From: an uncultured Porphyromonadaceae bacterium
GTDB taxonomy: Bacteria; Bacteroidota; Bacteroidia; Bacteroidales; UBA12481
Direction: 5' to 3'
Assembly: GCA_964457845.1 (NCBI GenBank)
Contig: CAYWHP010000003.1
Coordinates: 19,943 to 82,770 of the forward strand
Length of the DNA stretch: 62,828 nucleotides
In this document: positions 19,001 through 21,552 of the stretch, piece by piece
Layout of the letters: every line of letters starts with the position of its first letter
Position numbering within the stretch: the stretch's first letter is position 1
Translations under genes and position numbers: made by a program
The notes under the pieces: generated by a model
The model's input: only the letters and a program-made list of their open reading frames with translations
Database searches by the model: none
Told to the model about the DNA's origin: nothing

Positions 19001-19031
19001 CGATCTGCATTTTCACACCTCACCTGCCCTT

Positions 19032-19061
19032 CGCGTCACGCGTCACGTGTCACGTGTCACG
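19032..19061. repeat. Four tandem CG(C/T)GTCA heptamers
   Basis: CGCGTCA CGCGTCA CGTGTCA CGTGTCA CG, immediately after the stop codon at 19064-19066. Confidence 0.9.
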
Positions 19062-19063
19062 TT

Positions 19064-21376
19064 TTACAGGTCTCCATATATGGCCACCTCATGCCTGCCC
19101 CGGCTGTCGGCACAAGCGCGGTACATACCTGGTGAATTGAATACGAGGGCGATATTACCGTCCTTGTCAACCGCAATAATACCACCTTCTCCGCCGGCCG
19201 GCTTCAATCGCTTCATGATCACCTCGTCTGCCGCCTGCTGAACAGTCATCCCCTTGTATTCCATAAGCGCGGCGATCTCCCGGGCAACGGTGTAGCGTAT
19301 AAAGAACTCACCGTGGCCTGTTCCGGAAACCGCACACGATTTATTGCTTGCGTAGGTGCCGGCACCGATCACAGGAGTATCACCGATCCGGTTCCATCGC
19401 TTGTTGGTCATGCCCCCCGTGGATGTCCCTGCGGCGAGATTGCCGTTTGAATCGAGCGCCACACAGCCAACCGTGCCAAACTTGTTTTCCTTCTCCCGGG
19501 CAATGGCCCGCTGAAGATCCTTCCATCTTCGTTCGGTATAGAAATAGGTGCTGTCGACGATTTCGAGCCCGTTCTCCCTTGCGAACTGTGTGGCACCGGC
19601 GCCCGAAAGCATAACATGCGGCGATGCTGTCATCACCTTGCGGGCCAGCGTAATCGGATTCTTAACGTTCCGCACCCCGGCCACGGCCCCTGCCATGAGG
19701 TTGGATCCATCCATCACTGAGGCATCAAGCTCGTTATAGCCTTCATGGGAAAAGACCGCGCCCTTTCCGGCATTAAAAAGCGGGCAATCCTCCATAACCC
19801 TTACTACATTTTCAACCGCATCCATCGAGGTACCGCCTGTCGCAAGAATGCGGGTGCCAACCGTCAGCGCGGAGTCGAGCATGTGCAGGAACTCTTTTTC
19901 CAGCTCGGGCGGCAAATTCGCTTTAAGGATCACACCTGCCCCGCCGTGTATGGCGATGGCATATCGCGGCCTCTCCTGCGCCCCGGCAACTCCGGCGGTC
20001 AACAGCAGCAATACAAGCAGTCCGGCACCCGGGAGCATGCTCATCGTGCTCTTCAAGGGTCTGCCGAGTTTTTCAAGTCTTCTTTTACGCATCATATAAA
20101 TTAGATATCCGGAGACGATAAATAAAAGGAAAAACAGAATTTTTAACCATGCCTTTAAATCATAAATAATGATCAGTCCAAAAAAGACAACCATCAGGAG
20201 ACCCACCGAAACAGATACTTTCAGCCAGAATGGTGACAACCTGAATACGGATCTTGCATATGCATCCGGATACTTCTTCGGAAACCTCCAGGCTGCCAGC
20301 AGTATCGGCAGAAAAATAACCAGCCCGCCCAATGAGGCATAGGAGGCAAAGGTATTCAGCGAGAAACCCGATACTACACCCAATATCGACAGAACATAAA
20401 TTAAGGTCAGCAGCACCCACGGAACCTGGTGACGGGCCGTCAGCCGCCCCATCCAGAATGGAAGCATGTTGTCCTGCACCATCATCAGCAAGGATCGGGT
20501 ACCAATGATCAGCAGCGAGTTAAGTGTTGTGAGCAACGCGAGAACCGCTCCGCCAAGAATGAAAAAGATGTATACCCCGGATGAGAGGTTAGCCTTTCCA
20601 GCCACAACCAGCGGTTCTTCAGCACCAGCAAGCGATGCAGCAGGCACCGAACCGACCGTAACCCATGCAACCCCGATATAGAGCAATGCCACCAGCGGAA
20701 ACGCAATAAAAAAAGCCCTGGGGATGTTCTTCCCCGGATTCCGGATCTCGGATCCGATCTCGATAATCCCGTTGCCCCCGAAATAGGTAAAGGTGAGCAG
20801 GGCAAAACCCAGAATAAGATTGCCTGGCCCCTTTTCCAGCAAAGGCTTGAAATTTCCGGGATCAACCCGGTCGGAGCCTCCGGCAATAAAAATCACCAGC
20901 GCCCCGATCAAAAGGATAACCAGTACCCCCTGAATCTGCGCAGCAATGCGAACACCGAGCAGGTTTATCAGATAGAAGAATGTTAAAATGGCAATCGCAA
21001 CAGGGATGATCTCAATGCCGGGCAAAAGTGCCTGAATATATCGGGCACAGCCAATAAGGTAAAGCGGAATCTGGCCAAAAAATGAAGCCAGTGCATATAC
21101 CCAGACTCCGGTAAAGGCGAGCCCGGGCGAAACCATCCGGCTGGCATACATATAGTTAGCCCCGGATACTGGCATGGCCGACCCCAGCAGTGCCAGCGGC
21201 AGCATACTGATGAATACGGGAATCACTGCCAGGGCATAGGCGAGCGGCAGTGCCTGGCCACAGTACCGGTAAACGATACCGGTATAAACAAAAATCCCGC
21301 CGCCGATCATGAACCCGATCACGATGTACGACACCAGCGCGAGGCCGATCTTGTTCCGGAACTGGATGGAACTCAT
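19064..21376 (-). CDS. APC-family amino acid permease fused in frame to an isoaspartyl peptidase/L-asparaginase type 2 (Ntn hydrolase)
   Basis: aa 1-444 is a multi-TM APC permease (IGGGIF, YFGGNGIIEIGSEIRNPGKNIPRA). aa 445-770 has a signal-like segment, then AIHGGAG, PLFNAGKG and FGTVGCVA (Thr nucleophile). No stop separates the two parts. Confidence 0.85.
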   Translation of the reverse strand: MSSIQFRNKIGLALVSYIVIGFMIGGGIFVYTGIVYRYCGQALPLAYALAVIPVFISMLPLALLGSAMPVSGANYMYASRMVSPGLAFTGVWVYALASFFGQIPLYLIGCARYIQALLPGIEIIPVAIAILTFFYLINLLGVRIAAQIQGVLVILLIGALVIFIAGGSDRVDPGNFKPLLEKGPGNLILGFALLTFTYFGGNGIIEIGSEIRNPGKNIPRAFFIAFPLVALLYIGVAWVTVGSVPAASLAGAEEPLVVAGKANLSSGVYIFFILGGAVLALLTTLNSLLIIGTRSLLMMVQDNMLPFWMGRLTARHQVPWVLLTLIYVLSILGVVSGFSLNTFASYASLGGLVIFLPILLAAWRFPKKYPDAYARSVFRLSPFWLKVSVSVGLLMVVFFGLIIIYDLKAWLKILFFLLFIVSGYLIYMMRKRRLEKLGRPLKSTMSMLPGAGLLVLLLLTAGVAGAQERPRYAIAIHGGAGVILKANLPPELEKEFLHMLDSALTVGTRILATGGTSMDAVENVVRVMEDCPLFNAGKGAVFSHEGYNELDASVMDGSNLMAGAVAGVRNVKNPITLARKVMTASPHVMLSGAGATQFARENGLEIVDSTYFYTERRWKDLQRAIAREKENKFGTVGCVALDSNGNLAAGTSTGGMTNKRWNRIGDTPVIGAGTYASNKSCAVSGTGHGEFFIRYTVAREIAALMEYKGMTVQQAADEVIMKRLKPAGGEGGIIAVDKDGNIALVFNSPGMYRACADSRGRHEVAIYGDL

Positions 21377-21434: not shown

Positions 21435-21552
21435 GGTATCAGGTTTCGGGTATCAGGTTTCGGGTTTCGGGTATCAGGTTTCGGGTATCAGGTTTCGGGT
21501 GTCAGGTCCTCCACAGAAGCGCCCGATACCTTGTACCCGATACCCGACACCC
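21435..21552. repeat. Second heptamer family: GGT(A/T/G)TC(A/G) x10 with a shorter inverted arm
   Basis: Ten units of GGTATCA/GGTTTCG/GGTGTCA at 21435-21504. The inverted arm CGATACC TTGTACC CGATACC CGACACC lies at 21524-21551. Confidence 0.92.

What the first reader, a model, noticed from the sequence alone, without database searches (positions are those of the whole stretch)
19064..21376. APC permease fused to a periplasmic-type isoaspartyl peptidase/asparaginase through a retained signal peptide
Seen: one 770-aa frame. The permease ends ...YLIYMMRKRRLEKLGRPLKST and is followed by MSMLPGAGLLVLLLLTAGVAGA-QERPRYAIAIHGGAG (ATG at 20044/20038), a complete signal-peptide-like segment with a cleavage-like AGA site. 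Established: APC C-termini are normally cytoplasmic, and type-2 asparaginases autoprocess at a GTVG Thr. Inference: the old signal acts as an extra TM helix that places the hydrolase outside, where it frees Asp or cleaves isoAsp dipeptides next to the importer. Alternatives are a polyprotein cut by signal peptidase, dual translation from an internal start, or a recent stop-codon loss.
Basis: partly seen in the sequence, partly recalled or inferred. Interest (0 to 1): 0.65.

Follow-up and report, generated by a model that had tools for sequence, protein, structure and literature searches.

The report
Young permease–asparaginase gene fusion
In one freshwater Bacteroidales species, an amino-acid importer gene and the next gene, for an exported aspartyl-peptide/asparagine hydrolase, have recently merged into one reading frame through the enzyme's export leader; the merger is real but is probably a tolerated accident, not a new machine.

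Summary
Window 19064-21376 (minus strand) is one 770-aa frame: a 12-TM APC permease, a basic tail, a hydrophobic leader ending AGA|QE, then an intact EcAIII-type isoaspartyl peptidase/asparaginase (nucleophile Thr635).

It is not an assembly slip. Three independent metagenome contigs that differ from the window by 21-30 SNPs encode the identical protein.

It is a young, species-specific fusion. In same-genus genomes the two genes are adjacent but separate (stop + 2-3 nt + ATG, or a repeat-filled spacer). No other APC+Asparaginase_2 protein appeared among 1.84 billion representatives, 401 genomes of the order, or the GTDB species scan.

Topology suits the fusion. The permease C-terminus is cytoplasmic, so the leader should insert in-to-out and export the hydrolase as in the ancestor. 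Most orthologues are lipoproteins; the window's leader has no Cys and no basic n-region of its own.

Whether signal peptidase I cuts at AGA|QE, which I favour slightly, or the enzyme stays tethered cannot be decided computationally.

An orthologous permease is independently fused to an SGNH hydrolase in the same way. TauE-Asparaginase_2 fusions are widespread.

The parts
19064..21376 (-). Whole fused ORF, 770 aa plus stop
   Evidence: ORF; two Pfam domains; identical protein on three further independent contigs
20090..21376 (-). APC-family amino-acid permease core, residues 1-429, 12 predicted TM helices
   Evidence: Pfam AA_permease and AA_permease_2. Aligns over residues 6-439 with GkApcT 5oqt. 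Twelve hydropathy peaks. 87% identical to the free-standing 452-aa permease P0001.
20045..20089 (-). Basic cytoplasmic tail of the permease, RKRRLEKLGRPLKST (residues 430-444). It now serves as the n-region of the leader. The sequence is conserved with relatives up to GRPL(441), and the ancestral stop lay a few codons after this.
   Evidence: 6 K/R in the loop. C-termini of relatives P0001-P0006. Junction comparison.
19979..20044 (-). Retained export leader / candidate 13th span, MSMLPGAGLLVLLLLTAGVAGA (residues 445-466). In-frame ATGs at 20044 and 20038. A(-3)-G-A(-1) precedes Q467, so the predicted signal peptidase I site lies between nt 19979 and 19978. No lipobox Cys and no K/R of its own.
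   Evidence: Comparison with 117 orthologue leaders. AlphaFold2 pLDDT 32-40 over 442-467.
19475..19978 (-). Hydrolase alpha-subunit part, residues 467-634 (HGGAG at 477-481, NAGKGAV at 535-541)
   Evidence: Pfam Asparaginase_2. Alignment to E. coli EcAIII 2zak, E 6e-83. Motif positions.
19472..19474 (-). Codon of Thr635, the autoprocessing and catalytic nucleophile in FG|TVGCVALD
   Evidence: Beta-subunit chains of solved homologues start exactly here (query 191 of the 326-aa part). Position.
19067..19474 (-). Hydrolase beta-subunit part, residues 635-770 (TSTGGMTNK 651-659, RIGD 663-666, GTGHGE 685-690)
19035..19062 (.). Four GTCACGT heptamers in the 63-nt gap between the fused ORF's stop and the next gene (381 aa). 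Nearest relatives have a TetR gene at this place.
   Evidence: Gene tables of the P0001/P0397 contig and of G006.
21435..21507 (.). Heptamer array (GGTTTCG/GGTATCA) upstream of the fused ORF, between it and the divergent msrB-msrA gene
   Evidence: ORF list

Best explanation
This is a real, evolutionarily young, species-specific gene fusion.

Ancestral state (shown from relatives): an APC amino-acid permease gene was followed, 2 to about 190 nt downstream on the same strand, by a separate gene for an exported EcAIII-type isoaspartyl peptidase/L-asparaginase. That enzyme had its own leader, of lipoprotein type in most relatives.

The event (origin shown, exact breakpoints inferred): in this species a small change at the junction, most likely a short deletion in a repeat-prone spacer, removed the end of the permease tail, its stop and the spacer. 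The basic cytoplasmic tail of the permease now runs in frame into the enzyme's hydrophobic leader.

Consequences (inferred): every ribosome that finishes the permease must continue, so a 770-aa precursor is made. The 12-TM permease ends in the cytoplasm, so the leader inserts N-in/C-out as a 13th span and the hydrolase domain is translocated to the periplasm, the same compartment as in the ancestor. The leader ends in Ala-Gly-Ala|Gln-Glu, a good signal peptidase I site. I therefore consider it slightly more likely than not (about 55:45 among the fused-product scenarios) that the precursor is cut. That would give a permease with one extra C-terminal helix and a free periplasmic enzyme, which then autoprocesses at Gly634|Thr635. 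The outcome is then nearly the same as with two genes, apart from fixed 1:1 synthesis, which explains why the fusion is tolerated.

Physiological role of the pair (inferred from conserved neighbourhood and family knowledge): the enzyme releases Asp, plus a partner amino acid or ammonia, from beta-aspartyl peptides or Asn outside the inner membrane, and the permease takes up a product.
For: The fusion is real:
- One ORF.
- The identical protein is on three other contigs with 21-30 SNPs each and an invariant junction.

The ancestral state was two genes:
- G006 has TAA + 3 nt + ATG in the same frame.
- G014 and G002 have TAG + 2 nt + ATG.
- G001 and G011 have a repeat-filled spacer of about 190 nt.
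- The nearest relative, P0001 (87% identical), has a 55-nt gap.
- Only G000 of 29 family genomes has an uninterrupted frame.

The fusion is unique:
- No fused hit among length-matched homologues of either half.
- None among 1.84e9 representatives, in 401 genomes of the order, or in the GTDB species scan.

Topology fits:
- Full-length alignment to 12-TM GkApcT.
- 12 hydropathy peaks, then a loop with 6 K/R, then a 13th hydrophobic segment.

The leader is conserved as an export signal:
- All 117 orthologues examined have a leader.
- The window's leader has A at -3 and A at -1.
- AlphaFold2 treats residues 442-467 as an unstructured linker, as it typically does signal peptides, while both domains fold.

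The enzyme is intact:
- 2zak E 6e-83, with nucleophile and binding motifs present.
- It is the only Asparaginase_2 in the genome.

The pair is functionally linked:
- Permease-asparaginase adjacency recurs in the genus and, with different APC subfamilies, in Lentimicrobiaceae and Ginsengibacter.

Fusion at this locus recurs:
- P0024, at the same locus (msrBA upstream), is fused through a ...VYA|QE leader to an SGNH hydrolase.
Against: - No reads, transcripts or peptides could be examined, so the fused product itself is not observed.
- Cleavage is inferred only from the -3/-1 rule. No signal-peptide predictor was available.
- The uncharged stretch (about 24 residues from K442 to A466) is long enough to be a stable span. 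Its crude hydrophobicity (+1.4 on a position-independent Hessa sum) lies within the range of the permease's own helices, so it could stay uncut.
- The ancestral enzyme was mostly lipid-anchored and TauE fusions keep it tethered, so tethering is a normal state for this enzyme.
- The four concordant assemblies appear to come from one sample series, so they show one population, not several.
- The observation that all SNPs in the ORF are synonymous is partly by construction, because the contigs were retrieved by exact protein identity.
- The DNA of the nearest relative was unavailable, so deletion versus point mutation is not resolved.
Confidence: 0.6

Rival explanations
1. Tethered enzyme. The leader is not cut and stays as a 13th transmembrane helix. 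The hydrolase is held on the periplasmic face of its own permease and hands Asp or the partner amino acid directly to it, as a one-polypeptide 'transport metabolon'. The permease replaces the lost lipid anchor.
For: - The ancestral enzyme was membrane-anchored as a lipoprotein in 90 of 117 orthologues, and the window has lost the Cys.
- TauE-Asparaginase_2 fusions, with the enzyme directly after an in-to-out last helix and no cleavage motif, are widespread and stable.
- The 20-residue uncharged segment has hydrophobicity within the range of the permease's helices.
- The permease-asparaginase neighbourhood is conserved.
Against: - A perfect A-x-A|Q site is retained at the end of the segment.
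- Gly and Pro are enriched at both ends, and the strongly hydrophobic core is short (LLVLLLL), which is typical of cleaved leaders.
- AlphaFold2 finds no packing of the segment or of the enzyme against the permease (pLDDT 32-40, pTM 0.52). With no fused homologues, however, no co-evolution signal was available.
- The fusion is confined to one species, so no long-term selection for tethering is visible.
Confidence: 0.3
2. Dual expression. The enzyme is mainly made on its own from the internal ATG (20044 or 20038), as in the ancestor, and the read-through fusion is a minor or irrelevant by-product.
For: - Two in-frame ATGs lie just before the hydrophobic core.
- Gene callers pick ATG 20038 when the contig starts there (L016).
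- Bacteroidota initiate without strong Shine-Dalgarno signals (general knowledge), so an internal start cannot be excluded from sequence.
Against: - Without a stop codon, all ribosomes translating the permease continue into the enzyme, so the fused product cannot be minor relative to the permease.
- A leader starting at M445 or M447 would have no K/R n-region. About 105-110 of the 117 orthologue leaders have K/R ahead of the hydrophobic core by two counts, and most of the exceptions look like truncated gene calls.
- The residues KSTMSMLPGAG may even derive from the permease tail (4 of 12 identical to P0001's EMEMKGMWGEG). In that case the ATGs were never the enzyme's start.
- No promoter-like site was found near the junction on the coding strand.
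Confidence: 0.07
3. Artefact or dead gene. The missing stop is an assembly or sequencing error, or the fusion is a deleterious lesion in a decaying locus.
For: - All relatives have a stop.
- The genome is a 299-contig MAG.
- Reads could not be checked.
- A neighbouring TetR gene has also been lost.
Against: - Four separately assembled haplotypes, differing by 21-30 SNPs, agree on the junction.
- Both halves are full length with catalytic and transport motifs intact.
- This is the only Asparaginase_2 copy in a 98%-complete genome.
- All members of the 90% cluster are identical in protein except for one substitution, while at least 14 synonymous differences exist.
Confidence: 0.03

Closest known systems
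Free-standing permease + exported isoaspartyl peptidase/asparaginase gene pair of the same genus (e.g. G006, G014, and the P0001/P0397 contig)
   Same: Orthologous proteins: the permease is 78-87% identical and the enzyme 79-89%. Same order and strand, and in G006, G014 and L019 the same divergent msrB-msrA upstream neighbour (the upstream genes of the P0001/P0397 contig carry no SelR/PMSR hits). The enzyme always has an export leader.
   Different: Relatives have a stop codon and 2-190 nt between the genes. Their enzyme's leader has its own basic n-region and usually a lipobox Cys. The window has no stop, no Cys and no K/R of its own in the leader.
P0024 / L019: orthologous APC permease fused to an SGNH/GDSL hydrolase
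   Same: Same permease orthologue (65% identical) at the same locus (msrBA upstream). The downstream secreted hydrolase is joined in frame through a leader-like segment ending in a small-x-small|QE site (...AAGVPGVYA|QENT).
   Different: The partner enzyme is from a different family. It is known from a single contig only, so its reality is less well supported than that of the window's fusion.
TauE/SafE-Asparaginase_2 fusion proteins (about 565-577 aa; P0197, P0204, P0214, P0235 and others)
   Same: A polytopic transporter-family membrane protein is N-terminal and an orthologous-class Asparaginase_2 is C-terminal and predicted outside. In unfused relatives (L069) the genes are adjacent, with an APC permease next to them.
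   Different: They are widespread and evidently stable, with many clusters and sources. There is no separate leader and no AxA site: the last TauE helix itself runs in-to-out and the enzyme follows after about 25 residues. The membrane partner is TauE, not APC.
E. coli EcAIII / IaaA (PDB 2zak, 1k2x etc.), isoaspartyl peptidase / L-asparaginase, Ntn hydrolase
   Same: Best solved relative (E 6e-83). The GT(V)G nucleophile and the TSTGG, R-x-x-D and GTG motifs align. Glycosylasparaginase and Taspase score far lower.
   Different: By general knowledge, EcAIII is cytoplasmic and has no leader. The window protein scores 317 bits against NCBIfam PRK10226, below its 567-bit equivalog cut-off, so it is a family member but not an equivalog.
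Bacterial membrane/periplasmic polyproteins split at an internal signal peptide, e.g. Bradyrhizobium japonicum FbcH (cytochrome b-c1 precursor; recalled from Thony-Meyer et al. 1989/1991, not found in the paper library)
   Same: A polytopic membrane protein with a cytoplasmic C-terminus is followed in one ORF by the signal peptide and body of a periplasmic protein. The products are separated by signal peptidase.
   Different: FbcH is an old, conserved arrangement of two subunits of one complex with demonstrated cleavage. Here the fusion is confined to one species and cleavage is only predicted.
Cyanophycin/beta-Asp-dipeptide scavenging clusters and Peptidase_S51-Asparaginase_2 fusions (about 642 aa)
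   Same: The same class of Asparaginase_2 is fused to, or clustered with, cyanophycinase-family peptidases and amino-acid transporters (PMC10206079). This supports a role for the enzyme in beta-aspartyl dipeptide breakdown linked to uptake.
   Different: No S51 peptidase lies next to the window's gene. The genome's only S51 match is on another contig. The substrate here is not established.

Membership tests
APC superfamily amino-acid permease (Pfam AA_permease / AA_permease_2) | Profile match above the curated cut-off | tested here: met
   PF00324 scores 119 bits (cut-off 24.6) and PF13520 scores 115 bits (cut-off 27) over residues 15-421.
APC superfamily amino-acid permease (Pfam AA_permease / AA_permease_2) | 12 transmembrane helices (5+5 inverted repeat plus 2) with a cytoplasmic C-terminus | tested here: met
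   12 hydropathy peaks and a K/R-rich C-terminal loop. Alignment over residues 6-439 to GkApcT 5oqt, residues 23-465 of 471. The cytoplasmic C-terminus is inferred by homology and the positive-inside rule, not measured.
APC superfamily amino-acid permease (Pfam AA_permease / AA_permease_2) | Substrate specificity (which amino acid) | not testable with these tools
   All NCBIfam equivalog or subfamily hits are far below cut-off (best is TIGR00909, 133 bits against 557). JGI labels relatives 'basic amino acid/polyamine antiporter', which is an automatic name only.
Asparaginase_2 Ntn hydrolases, EcAIII/plant-type isoaspartyl peptidase/asparaginase class | Profile match, with the best solved relatives in the EcAIII class rather than glycosylasparaginase or Taspase | tested here: met
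   PF01112 scores 376 bits. 2zak E 6e-83, against glycosylasparaginase about 5e-41 and Taspase about 8e-24.
Asparaginase_2 Ntn hydrolases, EcAIII/plant-type isoaspartyl peptidase/asparaginase class | Nucleophilic Thr at the Gly|Thr autoprocessing site, plus the downstream substrate-binding motifs | tested here: met
   FG|T635VGCVALD; TSTGGMTNK at 651-659; R663-x-x-D666; GTGHGE at 685-690. Beta chains of solved homologues begin at the aligned Thr.
Asparaginase_2 Ntn hydrolases, EcAIII/plant-type isoaspartyl peptidase/asparaginase class | Equivalog of E. coli beta-aspartyl peptidase IaaA (NCBIfam NF007589 cut-off) | tested here: not met
   317 bits against a cut-off of 567. It is filed as a family member only.
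Asparaginase_2 Ntn hydrolases, EcAIII/plant-type isoaspartyl peptidase/asparaginase class | Actual autoproteolysis and activity on beta-Asp peptides or Asn | not testable with these tools
   This needs expression and an enzyme assay.
Sec-type cleavable signal peptide (signal peptidase I substrate) | Positively charged n-region | tested here: inconclusive
   The leader read from its own ATGs (MSM...) has no K/R. The charges come from the fused permease tail, RKRRLEKLGRPLK.
Sec-type cleavable signal peptide (signal peptidase I substrate) | Hydrophobic h-region followed by small residues at -3 and -1 | tested here: met
   GLLVLLLLT core, then A(-3)-G-A(-1)|Q-E.
Sec-type cleavable signal peptide (signal peptidase I substrate) | Demonstrated cleavage | not testable with these tools
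   No proteomic data were available, and no SignalP or DeepTMHMM.
Bacterial lipoprotein leader (the state of most orthologues) | Lipobox with an invariant Cys at +1 | tested here: not met
   There is no Cys in residues 445-470 of the window protein. 90 of 117 orthologues have one.
Established APC+Asparaginase_2 domain architecture | Other proteins with both domains in one chain | tested here: not met
   None. Caveat: clustered databases can hide long members behind short representatives. The window's own protein sits behind a 324-aa representative.

The most novel reading that the evidence does not exclude
The fusion is adaptive, not neutral. After the enzyme lost its lipid anchor, the uncut leader became a true 13th helix that docks the isoaspartyl peptidase/asparaginase onto the periplasmic mouth of its cognate APC permease. 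That would create a single-chain hydrolysis-coupled uptake device for beta-aspartyl dipeptides or asparagine. It would be caught within one species at the moment of its birth, and a sister lineage would show the same route for an SGNH hydrolase.
Probability: 0.2. Interest if true: 0.6.

Novelty: new variant of a known kind. Interest (0 to 1): 0.38.

Why it matters
- It is a clean natural snapshot of how a transporter-enzyme fusion with an extra membrane span can arise. Two tightly packed genes, a cytoplasmic C-terminus upstream and an export leader downstream make loss of one stop codon topologically harmless.
- The same locus shows it twice (asparaginase here, SGNH hydrolase in L019). The stable TauE-Asparaginase_2 proteins show what the end point can look like.
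- For annotation, the 770-aa call is right and should not be 'repaired'. The APC+Asparaginase_2 combination is a Rosetta-stone link that ties this uncharacterised permease clade to uptake of products of periplasmic beta-aspartyl/asparagine hydrolysis.
- It does not open a new biochemical principle.

Tried and rejected
- A junction pattern scan of metagenome contigs with a variable middle returned nothing. The tool withholds records of the window's own or very near genomes.
- DNA of the nearest relative's contig (ERZ1426840) was not available by either protein. The exact breakpoints, and deletion versus point mutation, remain open.
- The first two mixed alignments (A1, A2) misplaced the asparaginase-only rows onto the permease and were discarded. 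A3, built with trimmed locus translations and the G006 read-through row, aligned correctly.
- The AlphaFold2 model folds both domains but gives no usable inter-domain geometry (pTM 0.52, junction pLDDT 32-40). It cannot decide between tether and cleavage. I did not run fold searches on it, because sequence matches to solved structures were already decisive.
- A crude position-independent Hessa sum for the 13th segment (+1.4) falls inside the range of the permease's own helices (-1.9 to +4.7), so it does not discriminate.
- Paper searches for the B. japonicum FbcH precedent and for leader-mediated fusions found nothing usable. That precedent is cited from memory only.
- Glycosylasparaginase was rejected: the nucleophile context is GTVG, and EcAIII-class structures score far better.
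- A cyanophycin locus was rejected as the immediate context: no S51 peptidase is adjacent, and the genome's only match is on another contig.
- 'All SNPs synonymous' is not clean evidence of selection, because the contigs were retrieved by exact protein identity. Only the composition of the 90% cluster (one substitution in six members) is unbiased.
Full report
**1. Observation**

Window 19064-21376 (minus strand) is one open frame of 770 codons with an ATG start. Pfam places AA_permease/AA_permease_2 on residues 15-421 and Asparaginase_2 on residues 473-767, all far above cut-off.

The in-frame ATGs are at 20044 and 20038.

**2. Is the fusion real?**

An exact-sequence look-up still finds the 770-aa protein in NCBI and JGI records. 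It is encoded on three JGI metagenome contigs from different samples (L013-L015).

These contigs are 99.4-99.6% identical to the window over 4.9-6.9 kb. They carry 21-30 SNPs each, in different combinations, and none in the junction. So four separately assembled haplotypes agree.

A 324-aa record that starts at ATG 20038 is only a contig-edge call, since the gene starts at base 5 of L016. The other cluster members are C-terminal fragments that do not reach the junction. One of them carries a single substitution.

The fact that all SNPs inside the ORF are synonymous is partly by construction, because the look-up was by exact protein. The whole 90% cluster nevertheless shows one amino-acid change against at least 14 synonymous differences, which suggests purifying selection on the hydrolase half.

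**3. Origin**

In same-genus genomes the two halves are adjacent, co-oriented, separate genes:
- G006: ...LDLTL-TAA-TCG-ATG, in the same frame.
- G014 and G002: TAG + 2 nt + ATG.
- G001 and G011: a spacer of about 190 nt full of tandem repeats.

The nearest permease (P0001, 87% identical, 452 aa) is followed after 55 nt by a 325-aa asparaginase. In the whole family (29 genomes) only the window's genome has the uninterrupted frame. G006 and G041 have one TAA in the same frame. About half of the genus has the enzyme without the permease (G018, G008).

The permease sequence is conserved up to ...LGRPL(441) and then diverges from all relatives. The event therefore removed the last few tail codons, the stop and the spacer. 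The spacer is repeat-prone in relatives, and this genome is rich in mobile heptamer repeats (earlier notes; arrays flank the ORF).

**4. Uniqueness**

No protein with both domains was found in any of these searches:
- Length-matched homologues of the whole protein.
- Proteins of 423-1347 aa carrying the asparaginase domain.
- All 1.84 billion 50% representatives.
- 401 genomes from 236 genera of the order.
- The GTDB-wide locus scan.

One caveat applies. The window's own protein hides behind a 324-aa cluster representative, so clustered databases are not fully exhaustive. The whole-genome searches do not have that weakness.

**5. What the halves are**

The enzyme half is closest to E. coli EcAIII/IaaA (2zak, E 6e-83). 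Glycosylasparaginases and Taspase score far lower. The nucleophile Thr635 sits in FG|TVG, and the TSTGG, R-x-x-D and GTG motifs are present. It is below the NCBIfam equivalog cut-off for IaaA (317 bits against 567), so I file it as a member of the EcAIII class, not as an IaaA equivalog. It is the only Asparaginase_2 in the 98%-complete genome.

The permease half aligns end to end with the 12-TM GkApcT. Its substrate cannot be named, because all equivalog models are far below cut-off.

**6. Topology**

Hydropathy gives 12 segments, then a loop with 6 K/R (RKRRLEKLGRP), then a 13th hydrophobic segment at 447-465. By the positive-inside rule and homology, the permease C-terminus is cytoplasmic. 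The leader should therefore insert N-in/C-out and carry the hydrolase to the periplasm. That is where the enzyme belongs, since all 117 nearest orthologues examined carry an export leader.

**7. The leader in context**

Ninety of the 117 orthologues have lipoprotein-type leaders. One of them is P0397, the neighbour of the nearest permease (MKHLFWVAGFVLIVIAGGC|KSK). The rest have signal peptidase I types such as ...SAHA|Q or ...SLSAQ|D.

The window's leader has no Cys, so the lipid anchor is lost. Read from its own ATGs it also has no basic n-region, whereas almost all relatives have K/R there. The basic residues now come from the permease tail. This argues against independent initiation at 20044 or 20038 as the main route. 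In any case, ribosomes that translate the permease have no stop and must make the fusion.

The leader ends in A-G-A|Q-E, a textbook -3/-1 site.

**8. Structure prediction**

After two failed mixed alignments (A1, A2), a correct block alignment (A3) gave an AlphaFold2 model with mean pLDDT 75.7. Both domains fold, and most 10-residue blocks of the asparaginase half are at pLDDT 83-95, with a few lower.

Residues 442-467 have pLDDT 32-40 and are mostly coil, and pTM is 0.52. The model gives no evidence for a packed 13th helix or a defined docking of the enzyme on the permease. Since there are no fused homologues, it had no co-evolution signal, so this is weak evidence. A crude hydrophobicity sum does not discriminate either.

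**9. Mechanism: what is shown and what is inferred**

Shown:
- A real single ORF.
- An ancestral two-gene state.
- Intact catalytic and transport motifs.
- A leader with an AxA site.
- Loss of the Cys and of the leader's own n-region charges.

Inferred:
- The 770-aa precursor is made.
- The leader spans the membrane in-to-out.
- The hydrolase is periplasmic.
- Signal peptidase I cuts at Ala466|Gln467 (I put this at about 55% given a fused product), releasing the enzyme, which then autoprocesses at Gly634|Thr635.

Under this reading the fusion is nearly neutral, with the same two products and fixed 1:1 synthesis. If the precursor is not cut (about 30% overall), the permease replaces the lost lipid anchor and the enzyme works tethered next to the importer.

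**10. Parallels**

(a) P0024 on contig L019 is the same permease orthologue (65% identical) at the same locus (msrBA upstream). It is fused through ...AAGVPGVYA|QENT to an SGNH/GDSL hydrolase. This is a second, independent leader-mediated fusion, though it is known from one contig only.

(b) TauE/SafE-Asparaginase_2 proteins of about 570 aa are numerous. There the last TauE helix runs in-to-out after a KKG loop and the enzyme follows directly, with no leader or AxA site. In unfused Lentimicrobiaceae loci the order is APC permease - TauE - leader-bearing asparaginase.

[quoted passage not shown] No S51 gene is adjacent here.

(d) From memory only: the B. japonicum FbcH cytochrome b-c1 precursor is the classical bacterial case of a polytopic protein and a periplasmic protein made as one chain and separated at an internal signal peptide. 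I could not find it in the paper library.

**11. Verdict**

The architecture, the topology logic and the 'recent stop loss' alternative are right. Tethering is possible but not favoured over cleavage. Dual initiation is unlikely.
- The APC+Asparaginase_2 architecture is new. The principle (leader-mediated or C-terminal-helix-mediated fusion of a membrane protein to an exported enzyme) is known, and the event is confined to one species.
- Interest is moderate: a neat evolutionary snapshot and a useful functional link for an uncharacterised permease clade, not a new mechanism.

Noticed in passing
L019:1672-3645 (protein P0024): An orthologous APC permease at the same locus (msrBA upstream) is fused in frame to an SGNH/GDSL hydrolase through a leader-like segment, ...LIMGIMAAGVPGVYA|QENT. 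This is a second, independent fusion of this permease with its downstream secreted enzyme. It is known from a single ENA contig.
   Followed up: partly
proteins P0197, P0202-P0206, P0214, P0232-P0238; unfused version L069:889-4510: There is a widespread TauE/SafE(N)-Asparaginase_2(C) fusion family of about 570 aa. The enzyme is predicted outside, directly after the last TauE helix. In Lentimicrobiaceae the unfused order is APC permease (575 aa) - TauE - leader-bearing asparaginase. To my knowledge this family has not been characterised.
   Followed up: partly
proteins P0123-P0194 (about 642 aa), P0262, P0278, P0279, P0339: A very common Bacteroidota architecture is Peptidase_S51 (cyanophycinase/dipeptidase E family) + Asparaginase_2, in either order. 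It suggests one-chain breakdown of cyanophycin-like or beta-Asp peptides. SGNH+Asparaginase_2 fusions (P0209, P0228) also exist.
   Followed up: partly
window 19001-19063, compared with G006 (L002:3898-4491) and the P0001/P0397 contig: Nearest relatives have a TetR-family regulator gene (197-206 aa) between the asparaginase and the 381-aa outer-membrane-like gene that heads the ABC/FtsX module. In the window that gene is absent, and the 63-nt gap holds four GTCACGT heptamers. G014 also lacks the TetR gene.
   Followed up: partly
window 21435-21507 and 21522-21552: Arrays of heptamers (GGTTTCG/GGTATCA, then CCCGATA) lie between the fused ORF and the divergent msrB-msrA gene. In relatives (L002, L003) such repeats are read into the N-terminus of the longest MsrBA ORF (MGYRVSGFEYRVSS...).
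   Followed up: no
relatives' asparaginase leaders: P0395, P0401, P0407, P0414, P0418, P0421, P0426, P0427; spacers in L004 and L007: The region upstream of, and inside, the enzyme's leader in related species is built of translated short tandem repeats (VKNVKDVKGVKEVKGVKGV, LNRLNRLKRLKRLK, LLVAGLLVAGLLVAGC, WLRNSEGWLRSSEVWLR). The permease-asparaginase spacer is therefore a hot spot for repeat gain and loss, which may be how the stop was lost in the window's species.
   Followed up: partly
L091:1483-4885 (Ginsengibacter MAG): The arrangement is APC permease - PfkB-family sugar kinase - leaderless (cytoplasmic) Asparaginase_2. It is reminiscent of fructosamine or fructose-asparagine utilisation loci, and it gives a different context for the same enzyme family.
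   Followed up: no
G018 (L010) and G008 (L017): About half of the genus has the asparaginase directly next to msrBA with no orthologous permease at all. The permease-enzyme pairing is therefore frequent but not obligatory.
   Followed up: partly
protein cluster look-up: The 770-aa protein is filed in a 90% cluster whose representative is a 324-aa contig-edge fragment. Multi-domain proteins can be invisible in representative-only searches of these collections.
   Followed up: yes
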